From: Nevskia sp.
GTDB lineage: Bacteria; Pseudomonadota; Gammaproteobacteria; Nevskiales; Nevskiaceae
Assembly (NCBI GenBank): GCA_028291645.1
Contig: JAQGNU010000190.1
Location: 3,113 to 67,112, forward strand
DNA length: 64,000 nucleotides
Direction of reading: 5' to 3'
The notes below the pieces were generated by a model. It worked only from the letters and a program-made list of their open reading frames with translations, was not told the DNA's origin and ran no database searches. A program made the translations under genes and the position numbers. Positions within the stretch are counted from its first letter, which is position 1. Every line of letters starts with the position of its first letter. Shown in pieces: positions 890 through 58,466 of this stretch.

Positions 890-905
890 GGTATGTAACC
901 ATACC
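890..905. promoter_or_regulatory. Candidate operator copy 1: perfect palindrome GGTATG-TAAC-CATACC between the divergent OYE and TetR genes
   Basis: Read directly from the sequence. Arms are 6+6 with a 4-nt spacer. It lies in the 123-bp divergent intergenic region. Confidence 0.6.
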
Positions 906-986
906 ATATCCCGGTTCTGCTCGACGGAGGTCTCTAGCCGTTCGAGTGCCGGGCAGGCGCGCACGGACAGAATCGCAAAGGTTTGT

Positions 987-1679
987 GTGGCAGTAAAAGC
1001 CAAGGACCGGAGCAAGGCGGGCACAGCGTCCGCGCCGACAGATTCATCGCGCCATACCGGCAGGCGCGCACCGGGACGTCCGACCGTCGAGCAGGCCAGC
1101 GAGTTGCGCGAGAACATTCTCGATGCCGCGCTCGATGTCTTCTTCAGGCATGGCTTCGAGGCCAGCAGCATGGAGGGCATTGCACGCGCGGCGAGCGTCG
1201 CCAAAATCACGCTGTACCGGCATTTCGAGACCAAGGAGCAGCTGTTCGTGGAGGTCGCACGCCGCGCGCAGCTGCGCGTCCGCAGCAGCCTCGCATTCAT
1301 GGTCGACACGCGGGCACCACTCGAACAGGTACTGCGGAAAATTATCGAAACGCTCTACGACGGATTTACCCAGCCGCAATATCTTGCGGTGATGCGGATG
1401 GTGATCGCGGAAGCGACACGCTTCCCCAAGCTGGGGCGCGCGATGCTGAACGATTCGAAGATCGTTGCCGAGCCCCTGGTTCAATACCTGCAGCAGCTCA
1501 AGGACAGCGGCCAGATCGCGATCGAATCCGCCTACGACGCAGCCACACAGATTTCCGGCATGGCGAGCGGCGCCGGACGCTACCTGCTGGTAACGCCGTC
1601 GCGCCATCCGATGAGTCGCCAGCACTGGATCGAAACGCTGGTGAGCCTGTTCACGCGCGCCTGGCGCGTCGAAGCCTGA
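987..1679 (+). CDS. TetR/AcrR family transcriptional regulator
   Basis: N-terminal HTH signature ENILDAALDVFFRHGFEASSMEGIARAASVAKITLYRHFETKEQLF. 230 aa. Divergent from the OYE gene. Confidence 0.9.
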   Translation: MAVKAKDRSKAGTASAPTDSSRHTGRRAPGRPTVEQASELRENILDAALDVFFRHGFEASSMEGIARAASVAKITLYRHFETKEQLFVEVARRAQLRVRSSLAFMVDTRAPLEQVLRKIIETLYDGFTQPQYLAVMRMVIAEATRFPKLGRAMLNDSKIVAEPLVQYLQQLKDSGQIAIESAYDAATQISGMASGAGRYLLVTPSRHPMSRQHWIETLVSLFTRAWRVEA

Positions 1680-1813
1680 TCTAAATACTGCTGCGAAGCC
1701 GGGCTGCTACGGGACAAGTACCGGATCGCCGGTAATGTTACGGTGCCATACTTTAATCCGCGGACGACTTCGCGGATGCTCCGCGCACCCGACATTCTCC
1801 ATTTCCTCGCACC

Positions 1814-2095
1814 GTGAAAAATCGCGTCGACTCGATCGCCGGCCGCCTGCGGCAGGATTTCCTCATGCCGGTAATCGTCGCCCCGATGTTCCTGGTCTCC
1901 GGGCCCGAACTGGTGATCGCTTCCTGCAAGGCCGGCCTGATGGGCTGGTTCCCGACGCAGAACGCGCGCAAGGCGGTCGACGCCGGCGCCGATGGCCTGA
2001 TGGGCGCGCGGTTCATCGCCTGCCCTGAGAGCCTGGTCAACCAGGAGTACCGCGACATGAAGGTGCGCGCGGGCATGGATGGCGTCGGGCGGTGA
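1814..2095 (+). pseudogene. Remnant of a nitronate monooxygenase (NMO / 2-nitropropane dioxygenase family) with large internal deletions
   Basis: The 93-aa ORF keeps the NMO N-terminus (PVIVAPMFLVSGPELVIASCKAGLMGWFPTQNAR) joined to a C-terminal-type segment (GADGLMGARFIACPESLVNQEYRDM). Full-length family members are about 320 aa. Confidence 0.5.
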
Positions 2096-2220
2096 CCGGT
2101 GTGATGTGCAATTGGTTGAAGAAGAGCCTGACCAGCTCCTCGCTGAATATCGGAACGCATCGCGGCCGCGGCGAGCCGCGCTGCAACTCGTCGCCAATCA
2201 ATAAAAAGGAAAGCCCGAAA

Positions 2221-3366
2221 ATGCTGGCACATCGTGCGGTGTACAACGAGGAGCATGCGATGTTTCGCGACGCGGTGCGCGGCTTCATCGCGGCCGAGAT
2301 CACGCCGAACTTCACGCGTTGGGAAGAACAGGGCATCGTCGATCGTGAATACTGGAGCAAGGGCGGCGCAGCAGGACTGCTCTGTGCGCAGGTGCCGGAA
2401 ATCTACGGCGGTCCAGGTGGCAGTTTCAAATACAACGCCATCATCGGCGAAGAGATCGCGTATGCCGGTTACGCCGGTCCGCTGAGCGACTTCTCGGTGC
2501 ACAGTGATGTCTGTGCCGGCTACATCCTGCATTTCGGCTCCGAAGCACAGAAGCAGTACTGGTTGCCGCGCATGGTCCGCGGCGAAAGCGTCTGCGCGAT
2601 CGCGATGACCGAACCGGGAACGGGCAGCGATCTGCAAGGCGTGCGTACCCGCGCGGTCGCCAGCGGCGACGAACTCATTGTCTCCGGCAGCAAGACCTTT
2701 ATCTCGAACGGCCAGCACGCGGATGTCGTGATCGTGGTCGCACGCACCAGCGACGCACCCGGTGCCAAGGGCCTCAGCCTGGTGCTGGTCGAGACCCACC
2801 GGCCGGGTTTTCGTCGCGGCCGCAATCTGGAAAAACTCGGCCATCAGTCGGCCGACACTTCGGAATTGTTTTTCGACGAAGTGCGGGTACCGGCTTCGAA
2901 CATCCTCGGTGGCGAAGGTTGCGGCTTCACCGTGCTGATGACGGAACTGCCGCAGGAGCGGCTGACATTGGCCATCTCGTCGATGGGGGCCGCGCAGCGC
3001 GCGTTCGATATCAGCTGCGAGTACGTGCACTCACGCCGCGCCTTCGGCAAGGCGGTAATGGAGTTCCAGAACACGCGCTACAAGCTCGCCGATATCAAGG
3101 CCGAACTGAGTGTCGGCTGGGCGTTCGTCGACCAATGCCTCGAGCGCCACGAGCGCGGCCAGCTCAGTTCGAGCGATGCTTCCATCGCAAAACTCTGGTG
3201 CAGCGAAATGCACGGCCGGGTGGTCGATCAATGCCTGCAGTTCTTCGGCGGCTACGGCTTCATGCGCGAGTATGAAATCTGCCGCTTATATGCCGATGCG
3301 CGCGTGCAGCGCATCTACGGCGGGACTTCGGAAATCATGCGCGAGCTGATTTCGCGCTCACTCTGA
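2221..3366 (+). CDS. Acyl-CoA dehydrogenase
   Basis: MLAHRAVYNEEHAMFRDAVRGFIAAEI...MTEPGTGSDLQGV...RIYGGTSEIMRELISRSL. ATG at 2221 is preceded by AAGGAAAG. The longer track ORF from 2092 has a non-homologous N-extension. Confidence 0.9.
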   Translation: MLAHRAVYNEEHAMFRDAVRGFIAAEITPNFTRWEEQGIVDREYWSKGGAAGLLCAQVPEIYGGPGGSFKYNAIIGEEIAYAGYAGPLSDFSVHSDVCAGYILHFGSEAQKQYWLPRMVRGESVCAIAMTEPGTGSDLQGVRTRAVASGDELIVSGSKTFISNGQHADVVIVVARTSDAPGAKGLSLVLVETHRPGFRRGRNLEKLGHQSADTSELFFDEVRVPASNILGGEGCGFTVLMTELPQERLTLAISSMGAAQRAFDISCEYVHSRRAFGKAVMEFQNTRYKLADIKAELSVGWAFVDQCLERHERGQLSSSDASIAKLWCSEMHGRVVDQCLQFFGGYGFMREYEICRLYADARVQRIYGGTSEIMRELISRSL

Positions 3367-3417
3367 CAATCCGCTTGCCGCGCTCGCGGCAGGCGCGAGC
3401 GCAGCCCGGTTCAAGTA

Positions 3418-3446
3418 AAATGGTTCCATATAGTTGCGAACCATAC
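3418..3446. promoter_or_regulatory. Candidate operator, degenerate tandem pair: AAATG-GTTC-CATAT A GTTGC-GAAC-CATAC
   Basis: Two 14-bp units separated by 1 nt, immediately upstream of the MarR gene. The right half-sites are conserved and the left half-sites are degenerate. Confidence 0.35.
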
Positions 3447-3461
3447 TAATATGGTATTAGG

Positions 3462-4022
3462 ATGATTAACAGGTTAACCATATTGATATCGTACATGCGC
3501 GGAATCGAACGTCTGGCATCAGTAGAACGAAGCACACCGCCGATGGCGGAGGCCTTGCCCGAACTGCCGATGGCGGAAACAGTCATGGTGCGGCTGATGC
3601 GCATCGGCGTATTCGGCCTCGGCAATTTCTTCGAGCCGGTATTCCGCGAACTCGGCTTGACCGAGAACAGTTTCCACGTGCTCTGCCTGCTGATGGCTGG
3701 CGACCAGGGCCGCGCATCGCCGAGCGAGCTAAGTGAACTGGTAGGCACCACCCGCGCGAACATGACCCGCATTCTCGATTCGCTGGTCAACGACGGCTTG
3801 GCCTCTCGCGCCATCGAGGCACGCGACGGACGACGTCACGTCATTCGCATTACCACGGCCGGATGCAAGGTCGCGAGCGAAGCCGGTCCCAGACTGGTCG
3901 AGCCCTTGAAGCGGGCGTTCTCGGGCCTGGACGCAGACGAGCTTGCATCATTGGACCGGTTGCTACGCAAAGCGATCGTGTCCTTCGACAAGGGTGCGAC
4001 GCCGCTGCGTGTCGCGGCCTGA
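3462..4022 (+). CDS. MarR family transcriptional regulator (alternative start ATG 3543)
   Basis: Winged-helix MarR region: FHVLCLLMAGDQGRASPSELSELVGTTRANMTRILDSLVNDGLASR...DGRRHVIRITTAG. Confidence 0.85.
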   Translation: MINRLTILISYMRGIERLASVERSTPPMAEALPELPMAETVMVRLMRIGVFGLGNFFEPVFRELGLTENSFHVLCLLMAGDQGRASPSELSELVGTTRANMTRILDSLVNDGLASRAIEARDGRRHVIRITTAGCKVASEAGPRLVEPLKRAFSGLDADELASLDRLLRKAIVSFDKGATPLRVAA

Positions 4023-4085
4023 ACACACCGATTGATATCGACAAGAACCCGTCGCAGCTGACGACGCCAACAGAGGAGAAGGAAT

Positions 4086-4835
4086 ATGGATGAGAAAACC
4101 AGTCTCAGGTACCAGTTGATCAGTGCCTGGTGTGGCCCCGCGTTTCTGGTCACCTTCGTGTTTTTCTGGGGATTCCTGGGACACAATCTGCCGAACCCGT
4201 CGCCCGCATCGAGCGCGGCCGATCTGACTACACGCTATCTCAACAACCTCGGCGAGATACGGCTGGGGTTTATCGTCTCGATGATCACGGTCTGCCTGTA
4301 CCTGCCCTGGACTGCGGTGCTCAGCGCGCAGATGGCGCGGATCGAAGGGAACTTCCCGGTACTCAGCTTCCTGCAACTGCTCGGCGGCGGTTTGACGGTG
4401 ATGGTGGTGTCGTTCAGCGCGATGTTCTGGGCAGTGGCGGCGTTTCGCCCGGATCGCGATCCGGCCTCGTTTCAGCTGCTCACCGATATGGGCTGGCTAT
4501 GTATCGATCTGCAGTACGCCTGCACCACGCTGCAGATGGTGGCGGCGGCGCTGGCCGGATTGGCGGATAAGCGCAAGCTACCGCTGTTTCCCCGCTGGGT
4601 CTGCTACCTGACCATCTGGTGCGGTATCAGCTTTTTCCCCGCGAGCCTTACCGGCGTGCTGAAGACCGGTCCGTTCGCATGGAATGGTGCGCTGAGCTAC
4701 TACATTCCGTACTTCTGCTGGCTTTGCTGGTACAGCACGGCAAGCATCTACATGATCAAGGAAGTGCGCCGACGCATGCATGGCGCGGACGTTCCGGCGA
4801 CCTCCGGTCGACTTGCGCACGGCATGGGGACTTGA
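4086..4835 (+). CDS. Polytopic membrane protein of unknown function (paralog of 41184-41948)
   Basis: About six hydrophobic segments. Good RBS (GAGGAGAAGGAA). Shares WCGP, LSAxMAxxEGxxPV, PRW and GxFAxxG motifs with the 41184 ORF. Confidence 0.6.
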   Translation: MDEKTSLRYQLISAWCGPAFLVTFVFFWGFLGHNLPNPSPASSAADLTTRYLNNLGEIRLGFIVSMITVCLYLPWTAVLSAQMARIEGNFPVLSFLQLLGGGLTVMVVSFSAMFWAVAAFRPDRDPASFQLLTDMGWLCIDLQYACTTLQMVAAALAGLADKRKLPLFPRWVCYLTIWCGISFFPASLTGVLKTGPFAWNGALSYYIPYFCWLCWYSTASIYMIKEVRRRMHGADVPATSGRLAHGMGT

Positions 4836-4966
4836 AAGCTTGAGGCGGCAAGTCCGCCTCAGTCCGGCGCGCAGGGCTTCGGCATTCACATCCTGCTTCG
4901 GTGTGTTCTGCGGCGACATGGCCGCTGCGCGCGGCCCTGTGCGTCAATCATCTGGGGTGTCGTCTC

Positions 4967-5563
4967 ATGAGTGCAATTGCAGCGACGCCGGATGCGGCGG
5001 AGTACAGCACGCGACGCCTTCCGGGAGACCAGGACGTCTGGATTTTCATCATCGCCGAACTGCTGATGTTCGGCGCGTTCTTCATTGCCTATATCGTAAA
5101 CCGGGCAGGCGAGGTCGACCTGTTCAATGCCTCCCAGCTGACGCTCGACCGAAGCTTCGGCGTGGTCAACACGCTGCTGCTGGTGACAAGCTCGTGGGCG
5201 GTCGTAGAGGCCGCGGCAGCGGTGAGAGGAAATCGTGCTGCGTTGGCCCCATGTTATCTATTGATAGCCATCGGGCTCGGCGTCGCCTTCATTGTCGTCA
5301 AGTTCTTCGAATACTCGGCCAAGTTCGAGGCCGGGCTGTCGATGACGACGAACACCTTCTACATGTTTTATTTCTGCCTGACGATGATCCATCTTGCGCA
5401 CGTCGTCGTCGGTACGATCATCCTGATCGTGATGTGGACGAATGCGCGCAATGGAAACTACGCCGCCGCCCACACCAAAGGTCTCGAAACCGGCGCGTCG
5501 TATTGGCATATGGTCGATCTGCTCTGGATTTTCCTGTTCGCACTGCTGTATCTGCTGAGATAG
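4967..5563 (+). CDS. Heme-copper oxidase subunit III family protein (NorE/NirO-like)
   Basis: DVWIFIIAELLMFGAFFIAY...NTLLLVTSSW...FYFCLTMIHLAHVVVG...GASYWHMVDLLWIFLFALLYLL is typical of the COX III fold. ATG at 4967 is in frame with the track ORF 4901. Confidence 0.8.
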   Translation: MSAIAATPDAAEYSTRRLPGDQDVWIFIIAELLMFGAFFIAYIVNRAGEVDLFNASQLTLDRSFGVVNTLLLVTSSWAVVEAAAAVRGNRAALAPCYLLIAIGLGVAFIVVKFFEYSAKFEAGLSMTTNTFYMFYFCLTMIHLAHVVVGTIILIVMWTNARNGNYAAAHTKGLETGASYWHMVDLLWIFLFALLYLLR

Positions 5564-5569
5564 TTCGAC

Positions 5570-5854
5570 ATGTCCGGATTCCTGCGCGACGCGCGTCATC
5601 GAACCTGGCTGTTGCTGGTCATCGCCACCGGCGCAACCTTCTGGCTTCGCGTCGATAGCGACATCGGCTTGGCCGCCGCCGCGGGAACGATCGCGATCGC
5701 CTATATCAAGGGGCGTCTGATCGTCCTCGACTTCATGGAATTGCGCCATGCGCCGCGGATCTGGAAAGGCATTTTCGAGACCTGGCTGTTTGTGGTTTCG
5801 GCAATCATTCTTGCCGTCTATCGCTTCGGACTCCCCGCAATCGGCAGTGCCTGA
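5570..5854 (+). CDS. Small 3-TM membrane protein, prokaryotic COX-IV-like (NorF/NirP-like position)
   Basis: 94 aa with three hydrophobic helices. Starts 6 nt after the COX-III-like gene. The family call is tentative. Confidence 0.5.
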   Translation: MSGFLRDARHRTWLLLVIATGATFWLRVDSDIGLAAAAGTIAIAYIKGRLIVLDFMELRHAPRIWKGIFETWLFVVSAIILAVYRFGLPAIGSA

Positions 5855-5938: not shown

Positions 5939-5958
5939 ATGGTATGTTTCCATACCAT
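5939..5958. promoter_or_regulatory. Candidate operator: perfect 20-bp palindrome ATGGTATG-TTTC-CATACCAT, overlapping a -10-like CATAAT (5956-5961)
   Basis: Read directly from the sequence, 85 nt upstream of the proposed TTG start at 6043. It falls inside the implausible N-extension of track ORF 5920. Confidence 0.6.
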
Positions 5959-6042: not shown

Positions 6043-7491
6043 TTGACGTCCAGTACTCCCATCGGCATCAAGTCCTTCGGTGCCTACATCCCGCACCGGC
6101 GCCTGTCGCGCGCGGCGATTGCCGCGGCGCATGCCTGGGCCTTGCCGTCGCTGAAGTCGCTCGGAAAAGGCGAGAAAGCCTTCTGCAGCTGGGACGAGGA
6201 TGCGATCACGATGGCGGTGGAAGCCAGCCGCGATTGCCTGCGCGGTGGATCGGCGGATGCGATCGCCGGCCTCAGCTTCGCCAGCACGACGGCGCCGTAC
6301 GCCGACCTGCAGAACGCCACGATCGTTGGTTCGGCGCTGCGTCTGCCGGATGTGTCCACGCGGACCGATCTCGCTGGTTCGCTGCGCGCCGGCCTGGCCG
6401 CAGTCGCGCAGGCCCTGCAAAGTTCCGCCCCGGGCGAACAGCTCATCGTCGCCGCCGACCGCCGCCGCGCGAAGCCGGGCAGCGTGCAGGAAATGCTGTA
6501 TGGCTCGGCCGCCGCGGCGCTGCGCGTCGGGCAGGGCGACGACGTCATCGCCCGCTTCCTCGGACGCGAGTCGGTTTCGGTGCCGTTCATCGATCACTTC
6601 CGCCAGAACGGCGAGAAGTTTGACTACTACTGGGAAGAGCGCTGGGTCCGCGACGAGGGTATTTCGAAGCTGGTGCCGCGTGCAGTCGGCGCTCTGCTCA
6701 AGCAGCTCGGTCTGTCGATGGATCGGGTCGCTCACTTCGGTCTGGCCGGCGGCCCTGCAGGTGGCGACAAGCTGGTTGCGAAGGCGCTGTCGTTGCCGCC
6801 GGATCGTCTGCTGCCGGACCTGCAAGGGCAGGTTGGCGACTGCGGTGCCGCGCAGCCGCTGCTGCAGATCGCGGCTGCGCTCGAACGCGCCAGGGCCGGC
6901 GACATATTCATCGTTGCATCGTTCGCGCAGGGCTGCGAAGTGCTGGCATTCGAGATGCTGCAGCCGGCACCAGCGACTGGACGCCGCGGTCTCGCCGGTT
7001 CGATCGCACGCCGCGTCGAAGAGACCGCGTATCTCAAGCTGCTGTCGTTCGACGGCGAGATCGAACTCGATTGGGGCATGCGTGCGGAGACCGACAACAA
7101 ATCCGCGCTGACACAGCTTTATCGCAGCGCCGATCAGATTCTCGGCTTCGTCGGCGGCAAGTGCGGTAGCTGCAATTCGATCCAGTTCCCGCGCATGCCG
7201 TCCTGCGTGAATTGCGGCGCGCTCGACTCGCAAATACCGTATGCGCTGGCCGACGAGCCGGCCCGGGTGGTCACGTACACCGCCGATTGGCTGCAGTACT
7301 CACCGGCGCCGCCGATGTACATGGGGCTGGTGCAGTTCGATGTCGGCGCGCGTCTGCTGATGGAGATGGTCGATGTCGGCGCCGCTGGCATCGACGTCGG
7401 CACGCCGCTGGCAATGAGCTTCCGCATCAAGGAACGCGACCGCCTGCGGCATTACGACCGCTATTTCTGGAAAGCGGTGCCGACGTCCTAA
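6043..7491 (+). CDS. Thiolase-fold (HMG-CoA synthase / KAS-III-like) domain fused to a C-terminal DUF35 Zn-ribbon + OB-fold domain
   Basis: N-terminal domain: IGIKSFGAYIPHRRLSR...SWDEDAITMAVEASRDCL. C-terminal domain: GGKCGSCNSIQFPRMPSCVNCGA...YTADWLQYSP (DUF35-like). TTG at 6043 is preceded by GGAGG. Confidence 0.75.
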   Translation: MTSSTPIGIKSFGAYIPHRRLSRAAIAAAHAWALPSLKSLGKGEKAFCSWDEDAITMAVEASRDCLRGGSADAIAGLSFASTTAPYADLQNATIVGSALRLPDVSTRTDLAGSLRAGLAAVAQALQSSAPGEQLIVAADRRRAKPGSVQEMLYGSAAAALRVGQGDDVIARFLGRESVSVPFIDHFRQNGEKFDYYWEERWVRDEGISKLVPRAVGALLKQLGLSMDRVAHFGLAGGPAGGDKLVAKALSLPPDRLLPDLQGQVGDCGAAQPLLQIAAALERARAGDIFIVASFAQGCEVLAFEMLQPAPATGRRGLAGSIARRVEETAYLKLLSFDGEIELDWGMRAETDNKSALTQLYRSADQILGFVGGKCGSCNSIQFPRMPSCVNCGALDSQIPYALADEPARVVTYTADWLQYSPAPPMYMGLVQFDVGARLLMEMVDVGAAGIDVGTPLAMSFRIKERDRLRHYDRYFWKAVPTS

Positions 7492-7509
7492 CCTTTAGAG
7501 ATTCGAAAC

Positions 7510-11078: not shown

Positions 11079-11099
11079 TGGATCCCCGGAAAGGAGTGC

Positions 11100-14420: not shown

Positions 14421-14443
14421 ATTATATCGTATGGTACCAAACT
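14421..14443 (-). promoter_or_regulatory. Candidate operator (CGTATG-GTAC-CAAACT, 14428-14443) abutting a -10 TATAAT (complement of 14421-14426) upstream of icmF
   Basis: The minus strand reads AGTTTGGTACCATACG-A-TATAAT, 40 nt before the icmF ATG. Confidence 0.5.
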
Positions 14444-14471
14444 ATGATCGTCACGGATTGCGCCACGCCTC

Positions 14472-20737: not shown

Positions 20738-20766
20738 ATTATAGTATGCTGCCATACTAAAATCCA
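20738..20766. promoter_or_regulatory. Candidate operator TAGTATG-CTGC-CATACTA (20742-20759) embedded in two overlapping divergent promoters: -10 TATAAT on the minus strand (20738-20743) and -10 TAAAAT on the plus strand (20758-20763)
   Basis: Read directly from the sequence: cATTATAGTATGCTGCCATACTAAAATcc. It lies in the 182-bp divergent region between the BadH-like operon and the TAG operon. Confidence 0.6.
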
Positions 20767-28451: not shown

Positions 28452-28516
28452 TCGGCGCGGCTGCGCGCGAGTCCCTCCGAGCCGCTTCGCAGCCATTGCG
28501 GATCGCCCCGTCGAAA

Positions 28517-28534
28517 TAGTATGCTACCATACTA
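28517..28534. promoter_or_regulatory. Candidate operator: perfect palindrome TAGTATG-CTAC-CATACTA
   Basis: Read directly from the sequence, 32 nt upstream of the MaoC gene at 28566. It differs from the 20742 copy by one spacer base. Confidence 0.6.
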
Positions 28535-28565
28535 ACAAGATCGGCTTGTCGAGAGGAGCGCTGCA

Positions 28566-30275: not shown

Positions 30276-30295
30276 ATCGTATGGAAGCATACGAT
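30276..30295. promoter_or_regulatory. Candidate operator: perfect 20-bp palindrome ATCGTATG-GAAG-CATACGAT
   Basis: Read directly from the sequence, 31 nt upstream of the ACAD start at 30327. Confidence 0.6.
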
Positions 30296-38823: not shown

Positions 38824-38869
38824 TCCTCCAACACGATCCGCTGCTCTTTTGGCAGAAGCTTGCTAGGTA

Positions 38870-38887
38870 TAGTAGGCTACCATATCA
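38870..38887. promoter_or_regulatory. Candidate operator, two mismatches: TAGTAGG-CTAC-CATATCA
   Basis: Read directly from the sequence. It sits in the divergent region between the reductase (start 38823) and the NADP-oxidoreductase (start 38977). It has the same CTAC spacer as the 28517 copy. Confidence 0.4.
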
Positions 38888-38976
38888 TTATGTTCAAGCG
38901 CGGCTCGGTGACTTGCGCGCAGTGGCATCAGAAATAGACCGCCGGCACGACCGGCGTACCAGGAGAGAGACTCTCA

Positions 38977-41165: not shown

Positions 41166-41183
41166 CAGTAACAGGAGGATGCC

Positions 41184-42682: not shown

Positions 42683-42773
42683 ATCGCTCCGCGTCGGGTG
42701 TTTGGAAGCGGCAATAGTATCTATCATTACTAATTTTAGAAAACCCCATTTCTTCTAGTCCACCTCACGAGCT

Positions 42774-43214: not shown

Positions 43215-43350
43215 GCGGCTGCTGCTTTCAGGAAGCCCAGCCACGCGCTGCGGGATCGTCGCGGACAGGCGCGCTTGCGGCCGGCGCAATCGAGCGCCAT
43301 GCAAGCATCTTCCGATCAACTTACAAGCCAGCCAGCCTGAATGTTGAATA

Positions 43351-43379
43351 GTCTGTAACCATACGGTATTGTTACCTAC
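43351..43379. promoter_or_regulatory. Candidate operator, tandem pair: GTCTG-TAAC-CATAC G GTATT-GTTA-CCTAC
   Basis: Two 14-bp units separated by 1 nt, 51 nt upstream of the acetaldehyde dehydrogenase gene. Confidence 0.45.
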
Positions 43380-43429
43380 CTAAACACGACGAGCCGCCCG
43401 GAAGAGGGCGGCCTGAGCACAGGAAGAGG

Positions 43430-45381: not shown

Positions 45382-45391
45382 GCCGGCGACG

Positions 45392-47337: not shown

Positions 47338-47360
47338 AATGCAGTCTCCCGGAAAACGCC

Positions 47361-48638: not shown

Positions 48639-48648
48639 GGAGAATCGA

Positions 48649-49143: not shown

Positions 49144-49154
49144 GGCAAGCCCGA

Positions 49155-50884: not shown

Positions 50885-50913
50885 CCGATCAACCTCGCCA
50901 ACTACAAATCAAC

Positions 50914-51240: not shown

Positions 51241-51919
51241 GTCACGCGTGACGTCCGGAAATGCGCGCGCGCGCGTGCCGGCATCCAAGCCAGTCAGAGG
51301 TCCGCACAAGCGGCGCACGCAGGCCGAGCGCACCGACGAGATGCGCCTGCGGCTGGTCGAAGCGGCCGCGCTGGTGCTGCGGCGCAAAGGCTACGCCGGC
51401 TTGCGCACCGACGAAGTGTCGCGCGCCGCGAAAGTCTCGCGCGGCGCACAGCAGCATCACTTCCCGACCAAGGACAGTCTGGTGCTGGCGACCGCCGCAC
51501 ATCTGCTGAAAGCCGGACTCGACCGCGGATTGTCGCGTGCGCGCAGCACCGACAAGAGCGCCGATCCGATCGAAGCCATCATCAACGATTCGACCGAGTT
51601 CTTTCTCGGTCCCGACTTCAATGTGATTCTGGATCTGGTGCTCGCCGGCTCCAAGGATCGCGATCTGCGCGATCAGGTTTACGCGCAGACACGCACCAGC
51701 CGGTTGGCGGTGGAAGAGGCCTGGCTCGCGGTGCTGTGCGACAGCGGCCTGTCGCGTGCAGATGCCGAAACCGCGCTGTGGCTGACCTTGAGCATCGTCC
51801 GCGGCTTCGCGGTGCGCGCGCTGTGGCAGCGCGACGAGCAGTTGTTCCGGACGCTGCTGGATCAGTGGAAGCTGATCCTGGCGGGTCATCTGAAAAATCT
51901 GAAGGGAACCAAACGATGA
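51227..51919 (+). CDS. TetR family transcriptional regulator (embedded in the catabolic operon)
   Basis: [47 protein letters not shown]. Overlaps the ferredoxin gene by 14 nt and the hydrolase gene by 4 nt. Confidence 0.85.
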
Positions 51920-52797
51920 GTCTCTGGCTGGATATGCTCGGTGCGGAAATCCGTTATGTCGAAACGCCGAATTTCGGCCGCATCCGGATTGCGGAAGCCG
52001 GCCCCAAGGAGGCACCGGCGATTCTGTTTCAACACGGCATCGGCGGGCATCTGGAAGCGTACTGCAAGAACCTGCTGCCGCTGGCGGACGAGTTTCATAC
52101 GATCGCGTTCGACTATGTCGGGCATGGCCTGTCGACGCGCAAGCCGATGGAGTACACGCCGCCGGTGCTGGCCGAACAGCTGCGCGAGCTGATGGATGTA
52201 CTCGGCCTGCAGCGTGCGCATCTGTCGGGCGAGTCGCTCGGCGGCTGGGTCTCCGGCTTCTTCGCGGTGAAGTATCCGCAACGCGTCGATCGCCTGATGC
52301 TCAACACCAGCGCCGGCATTCCGATCGTCAGCGCCAAGGGCCGCGCCGACATGGACCAGCTGATGGAGCTGTCGAAGAAAGCCGCGGGGCAGGCGCCGAC
52401 CTACGACAGCGTGCGTGCGCGCATCGGCTGGCTGATCCATCCCGACAATCATCGGCTGATCACCGACGAACTGGTGAACCTGCGCCTGCGTTACTACACG
52501 ATGCCGGAAGGGCGCGAAGTCTCGCCGATGGTGAATCGCATGCTGCCGCGTCACGACGAGTTTCTGTTGCCGCTGGAGCAGATCAGGAATCGCACGATGC
52601 TGCTGTGGACGCGGGACAACCCGATCCACGATCTCGAGTGTGCGCAGGCTGCGTGTGCGCGCATCGCCGGCGCCGAGTTGTACGTGATGCGGGCCGACGC
52701 TGCGCATTGGCCGCAGTACGAAGCGCCCGAGGAATTCAACAAGCTTGCACGCCGCTTTTTCGGCGGCGCCGGCGGGAAAAATGGAGCAGACACTTGA
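51916..52797 (+). CDS. Meta-cleavage-product (C-C bond) hydrolase, alpha/beta fold (BphD/MhpC-like)
   Basis: [16 protein letters not shown]...[14 protein letters not shown]...[10 protein letters not shown]...[12 protein letters not shown]. Confidence 0.85.
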
Positions 52798-52811
52798 GCC
52801 GGATCGAGCCG

Positions 52812-53615
52812 ATGCCGGCGGCAGCGTCCGCTGATGAGCTGATCAACCGTGCGGCAGCGCGATTGCGACAGGCGTATGTCTCGAGCACGCCATGTGAACC
52901 GGTGAGCGATTTGCTGTCGCCGGGCGATCTCGACGGCGCCTATCGCGTGCAGGAGACCAACACCGAGTTATGGCTCGGCGAAGGACGCCGTCTTGTCGGC
53001 CGCAAGATCGGGCTGACATCGGCGGCCGTGCAGAAGCAGCTGGGCGTCGATCAACCGGACTACGGCATGCTGTTCGCCGACATGGCGATCAGCGACGGCG
53101 AACCGATCGCCTCCGGACGTGTGCTGCAGGCCAAGGCCGAGGCTGAAGTTGCCTTCGTGCTGGAGCGCGCTGTCGACGTCGAGCAAGCAACCGTCGCTGA
53201 CCTGATCTGCGCGATCGGTTACGCAGTCGCCGCGATCGAAGTCGTCGGCAGTCGCATCGCCAACTGGGACATCCGGCTGGTCGACACGGTTGCAGACAAT
53301 GCTTCCAGTGGCCTTTTTGTGCTGGGCAATACACCGTTCAGGCTCGATGGTCTCGACTTGCGCAATTGCCGGATGCAGATGACGCAGAACGGCGTTGCGG
53401 TGTCGTCCGGCAGCGGCGCGGCCTGCCTGGGACATCCGCTCAACGCGGCGTTGTGGCTCGCACGCAAGATGGTGCAGATGGGGCGGCCGCTGGGTGCCGG
53501 CGATATCATTCTGTCCGGAGCGCTCGGGCCGATGGTCGCTGCACGCCCCGGCGATATATTCGAAACGCAGATCGTCGGACTTGGCTCGGTGCGCGCCGCT
53601 TTCGCTGCAGACTGA
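52812..53615 (+). CDS. 2-keto-4-pentenoate hydratase (MhpD/BphH family). Alternative TTG start at 52794
   Basis: [26 protein letters not shown]...EAEVAFVL...IEVVGSRI...DNASSG...[13 protein letters not shown]. Confidence 0.9.
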
Positions 53616-53653
53616 ATCCATATTCCGCGAGGCCAGGCCTTTCAAACCGCAAC

Positions 53654-54430
53654 GTGACCGACGTTAACAGTAGCCGCAGCCGATCCCGCCTGGTGGCACT
53701 CCACGGCGCGGTGAACTTCCGCGATTTCGGCGGCTACCGTGCAGCCGATGGTCGCCAGGTGAAGTGGGGCCAGCTCTACCGCTCCGACTCGCTGGCGGAA
53801 CTGACGGTTGCCGATGTCGAGATCCTTGCCGCGCTGGGCCTGCGCACGCTGTGCGATCTGCGGCATGCCGACGAGCGTGCGCACAAACCGGATCACGTGG
53901 ATGTCGTTTCCAAGCTGAAGATTCATGCGCTCGGCTTTTATCCGACCAAGGCGCAGGAACTGCTGGCCGGTGTTCGAGCGAATCATTTCGATGCTGCCGA
54001 CGTCGAGTCTCATCTGCGCGAGGCTTATGCGCGATTCCCGCTGGACCAGTTGGCGATCTATTCGCGCATCATGAATATATTGCTGGAAGCCGCTTCGTTG
54101 CCCTTCCTGATTCATTGCACCAGCGGGAAAGATCGCACCGGCTTTGCCGCCGCAGCGATCCTGATGGCGCTGGGCGTTTCGCGCGATGCCATCCTCGAAG
54201 ACTATCTGTTGACGAATCGGTATCAGCGCGACCTGTCGTTCATGCTGGGGACCGACATCGATCCGGCGGTGATGATCGCGCTGACGCAGGCACATCCCAG
54301 CTATCTTGCCGCTGCGTGGCAGACGATCGATCAAACCTGGGGTTCCGATCAGGCGTTCGTGCACGAGGGCCTGGGTTTGCATGCGAGTGCCCAGACGCGG
54401 TTGCGCGCCTTGCTGCTAGAACCCCTTTAA
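53654..54430 (+). CDS. Protein-tyrosine-phosphatase-like protein (Y_phosphatase3 type)
   Basis: NFRDFGG...LYRSD...LRTLCDLR...active-site loop FLIHCTSGKDRTG. GTG start is in frame. Confidence 0.8.
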   Translation: MTDVNSSRSRSRLVALHGAVNFRDFGGYRAADGRQVKWGQLYRSDSLAELTVADVEILAALGLRTLCDLRHADERAHKPDHVDVVSKLKIHALGFYPTKAQELLAGVRANHFDAADVESHLREAYARFPLDQLAIYSRIMNILLEAASLPFLIHCTSGKDRTGFAAAAILMALGVSRDAILEDYLLTNRYQRDLSFMLGTDIDPAVMIALTQAHPSYLAAAWQTIDQTWGSDQAFVHEGLGLHASAQTRLRALLLEPL

Positions 54431-56126: not shown

Positions 56127-57152
56127 TTACCTGGTTGCGACTGGCGCAACTTCCGTAAAGGACCACTGGAAGCTCACCTTGGCGGCGCCCTGCCACAGGC
56201 CGAGCCAGGTGGAATTGCCGTTCAACGAGAGCGGCAGCGGCAGTGTCGTCGTCACCGAACCTGACGAGGCGGCATGGCGCAGTGTCGCTGCGAGCCAGTC
56301 GACGACGGCGCTCGGCACTGGTTGTGGCTCCTGTTGGGTGCTGGTGTGGCCGTTTTCGGTATGGATCGTCGCGCCTACCGGGCGCGGAATGAAAACGTTG
56401 TCCAGATACATCGATCGAGTACTGTCCTGCGTATCGATAGTCGCGCCGAAATGATCGCAGAGCGCCAGGCCATCGCTGCTGTCGATCGAATCCGCCGAGT
56501 GATGTTCTGAGAATGGCACCAGCCGGTCGACATCCTTGTTGAAGCGCACGCCGTCGATCTGCATTTCCAGCGTCACCCGCGATTGCTCCGCGCAGCCGTG
56601 AAAAGGCAGGAAATAGAGATAGGTTCCAGGAACCGTGTCTTCTTCGAGGGCTGCCGGATATTCGAGCGCGGCGAAGATCGACGCGTAACGCATGGTGACG
56701 TCGCTATTGCAACGCTGGTCACCTTTGCATGCAGATATGTCCTCCTGCATGCGGTTGGACAGCGCGGCCTTCTCCTCCGGCGTTCTGGGCAACTGGAAAG
56801 GATGCCCGGATGCTTCGAACTCCTTCTTGGCGCGCCGTGCGAGAAAGATGATCTTCGCTTCGAAGCGCGTGTTGCGATCCAGGTCTTCGAGGTTGCGGAC
56901 CTGCAGCTGGCCGTCGGACTTGAGACGTGTCGTGATCTCATAGCGCTGGGTCGTCGTTGCTTTCGACCACTCTTCACCGGTCTTGGGGTCGCTTCGTTTC
57001 CAGGTTTGCCGGGCCTCGACCGTAACGACGTAGTGAAGCTGACGTTCGATATCCCGCGCCTGGACGGCACCGGAAATTGCCTGCATCGAGATGGCCATGA
57101 CGATCCTGTGGCTCCGCTTCTGCAGGCGCAGCTTGTTGGCGGAGCAGCTCAT
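56127..57152 (-). CDS. Exported protein, unknown function (start uncertain: 57152, 57098 or TTG 57200)
   Basis: Signal-like MSCSANKLRLQKRSHRIVMAISMQAISGAVQA-RD. Ends 30 nt upstream of the 54636-56096 gene. I recognise no family. Confidence 0.5.
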   Translation of the reverse strand: MSCSANKLRLQKRSHRIVMAISMQAISGAVQARDIERQLHYVVTVEARQTWKRSDPKTGEEWSKATTTQRYEITTRLKSDGQLQVRNLEDLDRNTRFEAKIIFLARRAKKEFEASGHPFQLPRTPEEKAALSNRMQEDISACKGDQRCNSDVTMRYASIFAALEYPAALEEDTVPGTYLYFLPFHGCAEQSRVTLEMQIDGVRFNKDVDRLVPFSEHHSADSIDSSDGLALCDHFGATIDTQDSTRSMYLDNVFIPRPVGATIHTENGHTSTQQEPQPVPSAVVDWLAATLRHAASSGSVTTTLPLPLSLNGNSTWLGLWQGAAKVSFQWSFTEVAPVATR

Positions 57153-57365
57153 ATATCGCTTGGAAGTTGGATTGCGATGCGGACTTCGTCGCTGAAGCAA
57201 AGGTTTCCAGATGCCATTGTCGGCTGGAAGTGCGGCTTCGATGTGCAGCCGCGGCTACGCACCGTCGACCCATGAAAGAGGCACCGCAGCTTACGGTGAA
57301 TGCGTGAAGATCAAGGCCGTGAACGCGGACGGCGCAGCCGACGCGCGCTCACGGCTCATGTCGTC

Positions 57366-57635
57366 CTAGGTGTTGCCGTTACGAGCACTTGCCCGGAGCT
57401 TCACCAGCAAGCCGGGTAGCGCCGTCTGCTTCAGGATCGGCAGGCCGGAAGTGACGGAATAGCCAGCCGTCAGCAAGGAAATCGGCAGGCCTTTAAGAGA
57501 CGCGGGGAGCGTAAGCAAGCCGCCTTTATGCAGCAAGGTGATGTTGGTCAATCCAAGACCTTTCCCGGATGCCGGTGCGGCAAACGCAGGAGCCGAGAGC
57601 GCCAACAGCAATGTGACCAATACGATCTTTTTCAT
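57366..57635 (-). CDS. Small secreted protein (89 aa) with Leu/Gly/Pro-rich quasi-repeats, unknown function
   Basis: Strong RBS GGAGGA. Signal peptide MKKIVLVTLLLALSAPAFA-AP. The mature part has LKGLPISLL / SGLPILKQ / LPGLLVKL. Confidence 0.55.
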   Translation of the reverse strand: MKKIVLVTLLLALSAPAFAAPASGKGLGLTNITLLHKGGLLTLPASLKGLPISLLTAGYSVTSGLPILKQTALPGLLVKLRASARNGNT

Positions 57636-57979
57636 CTTCTAATCCTCCAGTCGCACATCGAACGGTGTCGAAAAAATAGCTCCGCATCGACACACCTGTC
57701 CGGATAATAGCGATAGTATTGTTCCGTATCAATATAGAGGAAGACCGGGAAAGGCAGGCAATGCAAGCGGCCCCTGTCAGGCAGCGCGAGGCAGATGGCA
57801 TGAAGCTGCGCGAATTGCACTCCGGAAGCCTTGGCGGTCGGTATCTTCCGACGCGACGAACGGCGCGTTGTTACTGGTCGTTCTGAGCGCGAGTGGGGCA
57901 GCAGATCCCTGCGAAAGTCTCTGGCGGAATCGGAAGCCGGCAGCAAATCAACAAGCTGTGGGGCTTGCATTTATAAAAT

Positions 57980-57995
57980 AGTATGGTACCGTACG
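57980..57995. promoter_or_regulatory. Candidate operator, one mismatch: AGTATG-GTAC-CGTACG, within an AT-rich stretch
   Basis: Read directly from the sequence, inside the 830-bp non-coding region. Related half-conserved copies lie at 57715-57730 and 58321-58334. Confidence 0.4.
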
Positions 57996-58466
57996 CATAT
58001 ATTAAATATTCGAGCATTAGATACATAGGAGTGCTTGGAATTGGCGGCATGGAAGGCTCATAAAAGGTAGCGAACCTGACTTGTAGTAGAACTTGTTGTG
58101 CGACGAAAAGAACGACGCGATACGACGTCGATGCTTAGATAGAAAGCTCAGCGCGGCACTGACCGCACGCCACGAAGCTGCAACGGACGGAGGAATTACT
58201 TGCTTAATCTTGAAGTCGTGCCAGAGCGGCGGCCAACCCAATCGCGCTGCGTTCGGTGCTTGCCGAAGGCCAGTTCAACGTGAGCGCTCAACGCGCATAT
58301 CGACTCGCGTTAAAAATAAGGTCTGGAACCATACGTATTTATGAGGCCCGCATCGGAGCGACGATTCCGTGCGCTCTGCCGCGAATGCCTCGGGGCCCAT
58401 CGAATTAGCCACTTCGTCCGAAGCGGATTTCAGTGACCTAGTAAAACATTTTGAGGAGAGCACGAG

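What the first reader, a model, noticed from the sequence alone, without database searches (positions are those of the whole stretch)
890..58334. Recurrent GTATG-N4-CATAC palindrome in front of at least ten operons: candidate operator of a single undescribed lipid/hydrocarbon regulon
The same inverted repeat keeps appearing in the intergenic DNA.

Perfect copies:
- 890-905 GGTATGTAACCATACC
- 5939-5958 ATGGTATGTTTCCATACCAT
- 20742-20759 TAGTATGCTGCCATACTA
- 28517-28534 TAGTATGCTACCATACTA
- 30276-30295 ATCGTATGGAAGCATACGAT

Copies with one or two mismatches:
- 14428-14443 CGTATGGTACCAAACT
- 38870-38887 TAGTAGGCTACCATATCA
- 57980-57995 AGTATGGTACCGTACG

Tandem degenerate pairs with 15-bp centre-to-centre spacing lie at 3418-3446 and 43351-43379. 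Half-conserved copies lie at 1738-1751, 42716-42731, 57715-57730 and 58321-58334.

Every copy I found sits in an operon-leading or divergent intergenic region. These include OYE/TetR, MarR, HMGS-DUF35-thiolase, icmF-thiolase, BadH-like/TAG operon, MaoC-ACAD, ACAD-xylM-like, reductase/oxidoreductase, the dmpFG-like pair, and the region upstream of DUF1329. None of the short intra-operon gaps carries it. Several copies abut or overlap -10-like hexamers, which is repressor geometry.

Copy 1 lies between a TetR gene and a divergent gene, the classic autoregulated TetR layout. TetR 987-1679 is therefore the prime candidate binder. MarR 3462, MarR 9145 and TetR 51227 are alternatives.

From memory, the half-site does not resemble the E. 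coli FadR box, the PsrA box (AAAC-N-GTTT) or the KstR/KstR2 boxes. If real, it links beta-oxidation, alicyclic and aromatic catabolism, TAG synthesis and an envelope uptake cluster under one switch, analogous in logic to KstR in actinobacterial steroid catabolism.
Basis: partly seen in the sequence, partly recalled or inferred. Interest (0 to 1): 0.78.

Follow-up and report, generated by a model that had tools for sequence, protein, structure and literature searches.

The report
Lipid-regulon operator of a Nevskia TetR repressor
A 20-bp palindrome sits in about a dozen promoter regions of this soil bacterium's fat-metabolism gene island and is conserved in its relatives, so it is almost certainly the docking site of one repressor, most likely the adjacent TetR protein, which makes it a solid but conventional new regulon.

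Summary
GTATG-N4-CATAC occurs 5 times exactly against 0.01 expected. A matrix trained only on those five sites finds 9 more intergenic sites (0.025 expected) and none in 58.5 kb of coding DNA.

Twelve of the 23 intergenic gaps of at least 80 bp carry it, usually inside sigma-70-like promoter cores.

The window comes from a Nevskia sp. MAG. Orthologous sites are conserved in Nevskia, Panacagrimonas, Solimonas and metagenomic relatives. They lie upstream of:
- the TetR gene 987-1679, in 9 of 12 genomes;
- the ACAD-desaturase-hydratase-ligase cluster;
- MaoC-ACAD;
- the HMGS-like/thiolase pair;
- the divergent beta-oxidation and triacylglycerol operons;
- the reductase/oxidoreductase pair;
- the DUF1329/DUF1302 envelope cluster.

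The site before the dmpFG ring-cleavage cluster is present in Solimonas aquatica and absent in Panacagrimonas perspica. About 1.5 Mb of control loci gave no hits.

Arm changes break the symmetry (49) far more often than they compensate (3), so the motif is read by a protein and is not an RNA hairpin.

My best reading is a lineage-specific TetR repressor (MexL/AefR-like fold) that autoregulates and controls a large lipid regulon. This is analogous to PsrA, TfmR, FadP and KstR but orthologous to none of those I could test. It is a new member of a known kind. Binding and the effector are untested.

The parts
888..907 (.). Operator ACGGTATGTAACCATACCAT between OYE-type flavin oxidoreductase (3-836, -) and TetR1 (987-1679, +). 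Candidate autoregulatory site.
   Evidence: Exact core. Scores 23.9 bits. An orthologous site lies upstream of TetR1 in L001, L002, L004-L007, L083-85 and L171.
987..1679 (+). TetR1, the candidate repressor (230 aa; TetR_N HTH plus TetR_C_7 AefR-like domain).
   Evidence: Pfam match. 100% identical to Nevskia sp. MAG protein JWR16_2912. AF2 model pLDDT 85; best fold matches are MexL, FrrA and AefR. The HTH segment 'VAKITLYRHF' is nearly invariant in 31 orthologues.
1735..1754 (.). Medium-strength site between TetR1 and the small ORF/ACAD 1814-3366.
   Evidence: 15.6 bits. No counterpart at 12 bits or more in L001-L007, so it is doubtful.
3415..3449 (.). Tandem pair (3415 at 7.2 bits; 3430 at 17.5 bits; 15-bp offset) immediately upstream of MarR1 (3462-4022) and its operon with an unknown gene and COX3/COX4-like genes.
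   Evidence: No orthologous DNA was available for footprinting.
5939..5958 (.). Operator upstream of the HMG-CoA-synthase-like gene and the thiolase-like gene (6043-8709, +).
   Evidence: Exact core. 28.6 bits. Conserved upstream of the orthologues in L003 (29.1 bits) and L100 (24.0 bits). Overlaps TCGAAA-18-CATAAT.
14426..14445 (.). Operator upstream of IcmF-thiolase (14381-9897, -).
   Evidence: 29.8 bits. Lies inside ATCATA-16-TATAAT on the minus strand.
20741..20760 (.). Operator in the divergent region between two operons. One is the beta-oxidation-type operon on the minus strand: SDR 19917-20684, then ECH, ECH, MaoC, MaoC, CoA-transferase and SDR down to 14517. The other is the storage-lipid operon on the plus strand, 20873-28451: abhydrolase, GPAT, HAD-acyltransferase, GpsA, WS/DGAT and lysophospholipase-like hydrolase.
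   Evidence: Exact core. 28.1 bits. Promoter-like pairs on both strands. Conserved at the same position in 14 metagenome contigs, including a TARA contig.
28516..28535 (.). Operator upstream of MaoC-ACAD (28566-30232, +).
   Evidence: Exact core. 31.7 bits. The orthologous site in Nevskia ramosa L081 at 14466 scores 29.8 bits.
30276..30295 (.). Operator upstream of ACAD plus a membrane desaturase/AlkB-family gene (30327-32744, +), possibly reading on into the ECH and acyl-CoA ligase genes to 35308.
   Evidence: Exact core. 29.6 bits. Lies inside TTTACA-17-TACGAT. The orthologous site is present in L001, L002, L004-L007 and L081.
38869..38888 (.). Operator between the ferredoxin-reductase operon (38823 downwards, -; it may include DUF2834, an unknown gene and FadL) and the oxidoreductase/Zn-ADH operon (38977-41948, +).
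   Evidence: 25.0 bits. Promoter-like pairs on both strands. Conserved in Solimonas aquatica L170 at 3860 (27.2 bits).
42714..42733 (.). Marginal site between class II aldolase (42682 downwards, -) and thioesterase (42831-43214, +).
   Evidence: 7.8 bits with the cross-species matrix and 12.5 bits with the window-only matrix. Weak.
43348..43382 (.). Tandem pair (43348 at 19.6 bits; 43363 at 8.1 bits; 15-bp offset) upstream of the cluster 43430-54430 (+): dmpF, dmpG, CoA ligase, Rieske dioxygenase, extradiol dioxygenase, SDR, ferredoxin, TetR2, hydrolase and hydratase.
   Evidence: The same tandem geometry occurs in S. aquatica L170 at 7978/7993. There is no site in P. perspica L169.
57713..57732 (.). 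Operator upstream of a small ORF encoding a signal-peptide protein (57635-57366, -).
   Evidence: 20.5 bits. Lies inside TTGATA-17-TATTAT on the minus strand.
57978..57997 (.). Distal operator about 480 bp upstream of the DUF1329-BNR-DUF1302-DUF1329 envelope cluster (58467 onwards, +).
   Evidence: 24.2 bits. Conserved at 290-480 bp upstream of the orthologues in L166 (16.8), L167 (23.0) and L168/L170 (23.0). It is the only conserved block in the upstream alignment.
58318..58337 (.). Proximal, weaker site about 140 bp upstream of the DUF1329 gene.
   Evidence: 15.2 bits. A possible counterpart in L167 at 9820 scores 13.5 bits.

Best explanation
The palindrome aT-n-GTATGG-ta-CCATAC-n-At is the operator of a dimeric transcriptional repressor. 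That repressor controls a large lipid regulon in Nevskiaceae (Nevskia, Panacagrimonas, Solimonas and uncultured relatives).

The most likely repressor is the TetR-family protein encoded at 987-1679 (TetR1). It would repress its own promoter and at least eleven other promoter regions in this window.

Shown here:
- The motif, its statistics and its strictly intergenic placement.
- Its overlap with promoter-like -35/-10 elements.
- Its conservation at orthologous promoters.
- Its linkage to TetR1.

Inferred:
- A TetR1 dimer occupies the operator and occludes RNA polymerase.
- A second dimer binds at a 15-bp offset at a few promoters.
- A lipid ligand (long-chain fatty acid or acyl-CoA, by analogy with PsrA, TfmR, Bacillus/Thermus FadR and KstR) releases the repressor.
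- Release would switch on, together, uptake (DUF1329/DUF1302/MMPL, FadL), activation and beta-oxidation, branched and alicyclic side routes, and triacylglycerol/wax-ester storage synthesis.
For: **Statistics**
- Searches give the counts against shuffles.
- 1.25 Mb of unrelated TetR loci and 272 kb of loci with distant abhydrolase homologues gave 0 hits at 14 bits or more.

**Placement**
- All 16 hits are intergenic and sit in 12 of the 23 gaps of at least 80 bp.
- The two promoter-like hits that the tool found in 20.6-30.4 kb both overlap sites.
- My own scan finds -35/-10 pairs enclosing 9 sites on the correct strand.

**Read by a protein**
- In 52 distinct sites, the six core position pairs show 255 consensus, 49 one-sided changes and only 3 compensatory changes.
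- The centre is itself palindromic.

**Footprinting: orthologous sites upstream of**
- ACAD30327, in 7 genomes.
- MaoC28566.
- The HMGS-like gene.
- The SDR19917/abhydrolase divergent region, in 14 contigs.
- The FdRed/oxidoreductase pair.
- The DUF1329 cluster, in 3 genomes.
- dmpF, in S. aquatica only.
- Sources.

**Assignment to TetR1**
- A site lies within 300 bp upstream of the TetR1 orthologue in 9 of 12 genomes, although the divergent neighbour differs (OYE or an SDR).
- TetR1 is embedded in the conserved core [site]-TetR1-ACAD-[site]-ACAD-desaturase-ECH-ligase.
- The recognition helix is nearly invariant across orthologues that share the motif.
- The model has a canonical TetR fold.
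Against: - No binding experiment exists. The true binder could be encoded elsewhere in the genome.
- TetR1 may carry the site only because it lies in a regulated operon with ACAD2092.
- Three TetR1 orthologues lack an upstream site: L003, N. ramosa L081 and L172.
- The 50%-identical homologue locus L082 has no sites.
- The effector is pure analogy. The nearest solved relatives (MexL, FrrA, AefR, RutR) bind non-lipid ligands.
- Promoter assignments are consensus matches. They are partly circular, because the motif flanks resemble a -10 hexamer.
- Membership of the dmpFG cluster is not conserved in P. perspica.
Confidence: 0.7

Rival explanations
1. The palindrome is a genuine operator, but a different regulator binds it: MarR1 (3462-4022), MarR2 (9145-9750), TetR2 (51227-51919) or an unlinked factor such as a GntR/FadR-type protein. 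TetR1 would then be only one more regulated gene.
For: - MarR1 has a 17.5-bit site plus a 15-bp-offset partner 20-40 bp before its start.
- The S. aquatica MarR2 orthologue has a 21.8-bit site upstream.
- Three TetR1 orthologues lack an upstream site.
- The central TGGTACCA resembles GntR-type cores (from memory), and N. ramosa has a GntR gene 1.2 kb upstream of TetR1.
- A site upstream of TetR1 could exist to regulate the downstream ACAD.
Against: - MarR2 orthologues in L003 and L083-85, and MarR2 in the window, have no site.
- TetR2 is in mid-operon with a 7-bp upstream gap.
- No MarR1 orthologue with available DNA could be examined.
- No GntR gene was found among the 60 window genes annotated.
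- TetR1 is the only regulator that co-localises with the motif in most genomes while its neighbouring gene changes.
Confidence: 0.22
2. The palindrome acts as an RNA or DNA structural element rather than a protein operator. Candidates are a hairpin terminator or attenuator, or a REP/MITE-like repeat.
For: - The 20-mers can fold as 6-8-bp hairpins of -5.5 to -8.7 kcal/mol.
- The site at 30276 is flagged terminator-like, with a T-rich tail after the ACAD29066 stop.
Against: - Arm changes are one-sided 49 times and compensatory only 3 times.
- The 'loop' positions are conserved and self-complementary.
- Some strong sites barely fold: 14426 gives -0.9 kcal/mol.
- Half the sites lie in divergent regions upstream of both neighbouring genes.
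- Flanks are not conserved between copies or between species.
- There is no Rfam match in the window.
Confidence: 0.02
3. The recurrence is a compositional artefact: AT-rich promoter-like words in the AT-richer intergenic DNA of a GC-rich genome.
For: - The pattern with up to 2 mismatches is not enriched over whole-window shuffles (19 against 11.2).
- The motif flanks resemble -10 hexamers.
Against: - Shuffling only the intergenic segments, with dinucleotides preserved, gives 0.015-0.10 hits against 13-16 observed.
- Orthologous conservation holds at 50-80% protein identity.
- About 1.5 Mb of control loci of similar GC content gave 0 hits.
Confidence: 0.01

Closest known systems
TfmR (XAC3052) of Xanthomonas citri / X. 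oryzae, a TetR-family fatty-acid regulator (PMC6637906, PMC11173191)
   Same: - A TetR repressor in the sister order.
- It is divergent to or adjacent to fadE (ACAD), and it also represses fadH. FadH is a 2,4-dienoyl-CoA reductase of the OYE family, and the window has an OYE gene divergent to TetR1.
- Long-chain fatty acids release it from DNA.
- It is described as restricted to one order.
   Different: - The TfmR operator has never been defined. Neither paper contains a motif.
- The nearest 50%-identity clusters to TetR1 are metagenomic singletons with no Xanthomonas name, which argues against close orthology.
- The known TfmR regulon is small (mhpC/fadE and fadH) plus indirect control of type III secretion.
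PsrA of Pseudomonas and other Gammaproteobacteria
   Same: - A TetR-family repressor that responds to long-chain fatty acids.
- It is autoregulated and controls beta-oxidation through a palindromic operator.
- Its regulon is large, averaging 11 genes per genome in comparative reconstructions (PMC5343134).
   Different: - The operator is G/CAAAC-N2-4-GTTTG/C (PMC13104628), unrelated to GTATGG-N2-CCATAC.
- TetR1 scores 22.6 bits on the NCBIfam PsrA model, whose cut-off is 300.
- Storage-lipid and DUF1329 operons are not reported for PsrA in the papers I read.
FadP of Burkholderiales (predicted TetR fatty-acid degradation regulon; Kazakov 2009, cited in PMC5343134)
   Same: - A lineage-specific TetR.
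- It was predicted by the same comparative-genomics logic to control a large fatty-acid degradation regulon (17.9 genes per genome).
- It replaces FadR or PsrA in its lineage.
   Different: - It is confined to Betaproteobacteria according to PMC5343134.
- Its motif could not be checked, because the primary paper is not held.
- No close beta-proteobacterial homologue appeared among TetR1 relatives.
KstR / KstR2 of actinobacteria
   Same: One TetR repressor with a palindromic operator repeated before many operons of a catabolic gene island.
   Different: - It controls steroid catabolism in a different phylum.
- TetR1 scores 32.4 bits on the KstR model, whose cut-off is 280.
- The operators differ (KstR boxes recalled from memory, not tested).
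MexL / AefR subfamily (TetR_C_7), the closest by sequence and fold
   Same: - TetR_C_7 domain.
- Best PDB sequence hit is MexL 8wrf, at E = 3e-23 and 32% identity. It is also the best fold hit.
   Different: - The MexL motif is TGTAATTT/AAATTACA, and it controls the mexJK efflux pump and phenazine genes (PMC11865548).
- No efflux pump lies next to TetR1. The operator and the regulon differ.

Membership tests
TetR-family repressor with palindromic operator | N-terminal TetR HTH domain plus an all-helical C-terminal ligand/dimerisation domain | tested here: met
   PF00440 at 60 bits and PF14246 at 57.9 bits, both above their cut-offs. The AF2 model (pLDDT 85) is all-helical and matches MexL, FrrA and AefR.
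TetR-family repressor with palindromic operator | Inverted-repeat operator of about 15-20 bp in target promoters, commonly including the regulator's own promoter | tested here: met
   An 18-20-bp palindrome. A site lies upstream of TetR1 in 9 of 12 genomes. Sites overlap promoter-like cores.
TetR-family repressor with palindromic operator | The protein physically binds the operator and a small ligand releases it | not testable with these tools
   This needs EMSA, DAP-seq and ligand titration.
PsrA regulon | Regulator orthologous to PsrA | tested here: not met
   The NCBIfam PsrA model gives 22.6 bits against a cut-off of 300.
PsrA regulon | Operator G/CAAAC-N2-4-GTTTG/C | tested here: not met
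   The consensus found here is GTATGG-N2-CCATAC. The PsrA motif is as quoted in PMC13104628.
TfmR (Xanthomonadales) | Regulator orthologous to XAC3052 | tested here: inconclusive
   No TfmR sequence was obtainable. Only 15 clusters (at 50% identity) lie within E <= 1e-30 of TetR1. Of the ten I looked up, none carries a Xanthomonas name.
TfmR (Xanthomonadales) | Linked to fadE/mhpC and fadH, and released by long-chain fatty acids | tested here: inconclusive
   An OYE (fadH-type family) gene is divergent to TetR1 and an ACAD lies downstream. The ligand response is not testable here.
KstR / KstR2 | Regulator orthologous to KstR | tested here: not met
   The NCBIfam KstR model gives 32.4 bits against a cut-off of 280.
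MexL/AefR-type efflux regulators | TetR_C_7 C-terminal domain | tested here: met
   PF14246 at 57.9 bits. MexL is the best PDB hit.
MexL/AefR-type efflux regulators | Operator TGTAATTT and an adjacent RND efflux operon | tested here: not met
   The motif differs. The neighbours are OYE/SDR and ACAD genes, not an efflux pump.
E. coli-type FadR (GntR family) | GntR winged-helix regulator encoded with the regulon | tested here: not met
   No GntR domain was found among the 60 window proteins scanned. An unlinked GntR cannot be excluded.

The most novel reading that the evidence does not exclude
A single lipid-sensing TetR repressor specific to Nevskiaceae, with a previously undescribed operator, co-ordinates three processes from one signal:
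- envelope uptake (DUF1329/DUF1302/MMPL, FadL);
- beta-oxidation and side-chain or ring catabolism;
- synthesis of storage triacylglycerol and wax esters.

At some promoters it would bind as two dimers offset by exactly 15 bp. If true, this would give the first regulatory evidence tying the uncharacterised DUF1329/DUF1302 envelope proteins to lipid acquisition. It would also show catabolism and storage under one repressor.
Probability: 0.45. Interest if true: 0.55.

Novelty: new member of a known kind. Interest (0 to 1): 0.4.

Why it matters
Nevskiaceae (Nevskia, Panacagrimonas, Solimonas) are widespread in soil, freshwater surface films and hydrocarbon- or lipid-rich habitats. Nothing in the literature I could search describes their transcriptional regulation.

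A defined operator together with a candidate repressor has several uses:
- It gives a ready-made regulon map, which can be used to annotate dozens of poorly characterised genes as lipid-related. Examples are DUF1329, DUF1302, DUF2834, the COX3/COX4-like pair and the HMGS-like/thiolase pair.
- It predicts that storage-lipid synthesis is induced together with fatty-acid catabolism.
- It offers a compact repressor/operator pair for biosensor or expression-control work.
- It suggests a concrete sequence to look for in the still undefined TfmR operators of Xanthomonas.

The finding does not change how this class of regulation is understood.

Tried and rejected
- **Bare pattern with up to 2 mismatches.** It is not significant against whole-window shuffles, so I replaced it with matrix tests.
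- **Exact look-up of the window's IcmF protein.** Not on record.
- **Literature search for GTATG/CATAC with TetR and operator.** It returned only primer noise. TATGGTACCATA gave no regulator paper. Nevskia, Solimonas, Panacagrimonas or Hydrocarboniphaga combined with TetR or regulon gave nothing relevant.
- **Kazakov 2009 (FadP motif).** The paper is not held.
- **MexL operator.** Different motif, so rejected as a match.
- **TfmR.** No operator is given in either paper and no sequence appears in the supplements, so orthology could not be tested.
- **Rfam.** No family was found in the window.
- **Leader of the DUF1329 gene.** Apart from the operator it is not conserved, so I dropped the idea of a conserved leader RNA.
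- **Structure prediction and fold search.** They confirm a generic TetR fold but give no usable clue to the effector.
- **The 50%-identity homologue locus L082.** It has no sites, so the motif does not extend to that paralogue or distant orthologue.
- **P0233 locus.** No DNA was available.
- **MarR1 and TetR2 as binders.** No MarR1 homologue lies in any fetched locus, so that rival could not be tested further. The TetR2 orthologues later fetched (L168-L170) sit mid-operon with no site.

Full report
**What is in the sequence**

The 14-mer GTATG-N4-CATAC occurs exactly at 891, 5942, 20744, 28519 and 30279. That is five matches against a mean of 0.01 in dinucleotide-preserving shuffles. With up to two mismatches the bare pattern is not enriched: 19 matches against 11.2 expected.

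I built a gene map with a codon-usage model and annotated 60 genes with Pfam. Intergenic DNA makes up 8.5% of the window.

Two matrix tests followed.
- A 20-bp matrix trained only on the five perfect sites, scored against intergenic composition, finds nine further intergenic sites at 12 bits or more. Shuffled intergenic segments give 0.025. There are no coding hits at 10 bits or more in 58.5 kb.
- A matrix built from 47 distinct sites in this window and its relatives gives 16 hits at 7 bits or more. All are intergenic, and shuffles give 0.10. Thirteen hits reach 14 bits or more against 0.015 in shuffles.

Three of them (42714, 43363, 3415) are marginal at 7-8 bits.

The T at position -5 and the A at +6 are invariant.

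**Where the sites lie**

The 16 hits fall in 12 of the 23 intergenic gaps of at least 80 bp. No shorter gap carries one. The site-bearing regions lead these genes or operons:
- the OYE / TetR1 divergent pair;
- the small ORF and ACAD;
- MarR1 with the COX3/COX4-like genes;
- the HMGS-like and thiolase-like pair;
- IcmF and thiolase;
- a seven-gene beta-oxidation-type operon, divergent from an operon of abhydrolase, GPAT, HAD-acyltransferase, GpsA, WS/DGAT and hydrolase;
- MaoC and ACAD;
- ACAD and a membrane desaturase/AlkB-family gene;
- the ferredoxin reductase / oxidoreductase divergent pair;
- the aldolase / thioesterase divergent pair;
- the cluster starting with dmpFG, with CoA ligase, Rieske dioxygenase and extradiol dioxygenase;
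- a small secreted-protein gene;
- the DUF1329-BNR-DUF1302-DUF1329 cluster.

The promoter tool found only two sigma-70-like pairs in 20.6-30.4 kb, and both overlap sites. My relaxed scan finds -35/-10 pairs with the site in the spacer or the -10 element, on the strand of the downstream gene, for 9 sites. At 20741 and 38869 this holds on both strands. These are consensus matches. They are partly circular, because the motif flanks (TAnnAT) look like a -10 hexamer.

**Provenance and conservation**

TetR1 (987-1679) is 100% identical to a protein of a Nevskia sp. MAG on a 67.9-kb contig.

TetR1 orthologues at 62-82% identity occur in Nevskia, Panacagrimonas, Solimonas and uncultured 'Sinobacteraceae'. 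Among 12 genomes including the window, 9 have a strong site (21-30 bits) within 300 bp upstream of the TetR1 gene. This holds although the divergent neighbour is an OYE gene in two genomes and an SDR in the others. Three genomes lack it: L003, N. ramosa L081 and L172.

The conserved core arrangement is [site]-TetR1-ACAD-[site]-ACAD-desaturase-ECH-ligase. The second site is present in seven genomes.

Other orthologous promoters also keep the site.
- MaoC-ACAD in N. ramosa.
- The HMGS-like gene in L003 and L100.
- The SDR19917/abhydrolase divergent region in 14 metagenome contigs, down to about 50% protein identity and including a TARA ocean contig.
- The ferredoxin-reductase/oxidoreductase pair in S. 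aquatica.
- The distal site 290-480 bp upstream of the DUF1329 cluster in three genomes. There it is the only conserved block in the upstream alignment.

The dmpF tandem site recurs with the same geometry in S. aquatica. P. perspica has no site anywhere in that 21.7-kb locus, so the aromatic cluster is a variable member of the regulon.

In three contigs where the TAG operon is not next to SDR19917, the site is missing (L088, L098, L105). L097 keeps it. The site may therefore serve the SDR operon first and the TAG operon second.

Controls were clean. 1.25 Mb of unrelated TetR loci and 272 kb of loci with distant abhydrolase homologues gave no hit at 14 bits or more.

**Protein operator or structure?**

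I compared the six core position pairs across 52 distinct sites. There are 255 consensus pairs, 49 one-sided changes that break the symmetry, and only 3 compensatory changes. The centre is conserved and itself palindromic. Some strong sites barely fold as RNA. Flanks are not conserved. Rfam finds nothing in the window. This is the signature of a dimeric DNA-binding protein, not of a hairpin or a mobile repeat.

Secondary sites occur only at exactly 15 bp from a primary site, in 3 of 62 primaries and never at any other offset within 60 bp. This suggests that a second dimer binds at a few promoters, as is known for some TetR proteins.

**Which protein?**

TetR1 has a TetR_N HTH and a TetR_C_7 (AefR-like) domain. 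Its AF2 model (pLDDT 85) has a canonical fold closest to MexL, FrrA and AefR. Its recognition helix is nearly invariant across 31 orthologues, and it has a conserved basic N-terminal GRPT arm. It reaches no NCBIfam equivalog cut-off: PsrA, KstR, FadR-Bacillus, AcrR and the others all fall far below. Only 15 clusters at 50% identity in 1.84 billion representatives lie within E <= 1e-30, and those I looked up are metagenomic singletons.

The rival regulators fare worse.
- MarR2 orthologues carry a site in only one of four genomes that have one, counting the window.
- TetR2 sits in mid-operon with no site.
- MarR1 has a medium site in the window, but no orthologous DNA was available.
- An unlinked regulator cannot be excluded.

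I put 0.7 on TetR1 as the binder, and about 0.95 on the motif being the operator of some repressor.

**Mechanism**

The following are shown: the motif, its placement, its conservation and its linkage to TetR1.

The following are inferred. A TetR1 dimer occupies the operator in the spacer/-10 region and blocks RNA polymerase. A lipid ligand releases it. The operons for uptake, activation, beta-oxidation and storage-lipid synthesis are then induced together. The ligand inference rests only on analogy with PsrA, TfmR, Bacillus/Thermus FadR and KstR (PMC6637906, PMC13104628, PMC5397183 abstract). The nearest solved relatives bind other kinds of ligand.

**Comparison with known systems**

The system works like PsrA, FadP, TfmR and KstR: one TetR repressor and one palindrome repeated before many lipid-catabolic operons.

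It is not PsrA or KstR, because both the model scores and the motif fail. It is not MexL in function, because the motif and the neighbours differ.

TfmR of Xanthomonas is the most intriguing analogue. It belongs to the sister order, is linked to fadE and fadH, and responds to long-chain fatty acids. The sparse homologue landscape argues against a close relationship.

**Verdict**

This is a well-supported new regulon and operator of a familiar kind in an unstudied bacterial family. It is useful for annotating DUF1329/DUF1302 and for the link to storage lipids, but it is not conceptually surprising. Interest: 0.4.

Noticed in passing
window 57366-57635 (-): An 89-aa ORF with a signal-peptide-like N-terminus (MKKIVLVTLLLALSAPAFA). 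My gene model did not call it. It is preceded by site 57713, which lies inside a TTGATA-17-TATTAT promoter-like pair. It may be a small secreted or lipoprotein member of the regulon.
   Followed up: partly
window 57978-58466; L166, L167, L168 upstream of DUF1329: The conserved operator of the DUF1329 cluster lies 290-480 bp before the start codon, which implies a long leader. Apart from the operator, the leader sequence is not conserved between four genomes, and no Rfam family matches.
   Followed up: yes
window 3400-30270 versus L001, L002, L004-L007: In relatives, TetR1-ACAD2092 is followed directly by ACAD30327-desaturase-ECH-ligase. In this MAG about 27 kb of further site-bearing operons lies between them: MarR1/COX3-like, HMGS-like, IcmF, the beta-oxidation operon, the TAG operon and MaoC-ACAD. 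Regulon members have therefore been gathered into one island here.
   Followed up: partly
window 3415/3430 and 43348/43363; L170 7978/7993: Secondary sites occur only at exactly 15 bp from a primary site, in 3 of 62 primaries and never at any other offset within 60 bp. This suggests a fixed two-dimer arrangement at a few promoters.
   Followed up: yes
window 3462-5854 (+): This operon comprises MarR1, a 249-aa protein with no family match, and proteins like cytochrome oxidase subunits III and IV, with no subunit I or II nearby. The same unknown/COX3/COX4 trio recurs in P. perspica (L169) and in the 986-kb relative. Its function is unclear.
   Followed up: no
window 6043-8709 (+): A 482-aa protein resembles archaeal-type HMG-CoA synthase over residues 7-330 (138 bits, below the cut-off of 244). 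It is paired with an SCP-x-type thiolase-like protein. The pair and its upstream operator are conserved in relatives (L003, L094, L100).
   Followed up: partly
window 30276-30305: The simple scan also scores the operator at 30276 as terminator-like: an 8-bp stem plus a T-rich tail just after the ACAD29066 stop. It could both end one transcript and gate the next.
   Followed up: no
L081 (Nevskia ramosa) 10801-11454; L171 10736-11386: In two Nevskia genomes a second TetR_N-only regulator gene lies immediately downstream of the TetR1 orthologue, followed by the desaturase gene on the opposite strand. I did not examine its relation to TetR1 or to the motif.
   Followed up: no
L166, L167, L168 downstream of the DUF1329 cluster: In relatives the DUF1329-BNR-DUF1302-DUF1329 genes are followed by one or two MMPL/RND-type transporter genes. 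The window ends before this point, so the cluster here probably continues beyond 64000.
   Followed up: partly
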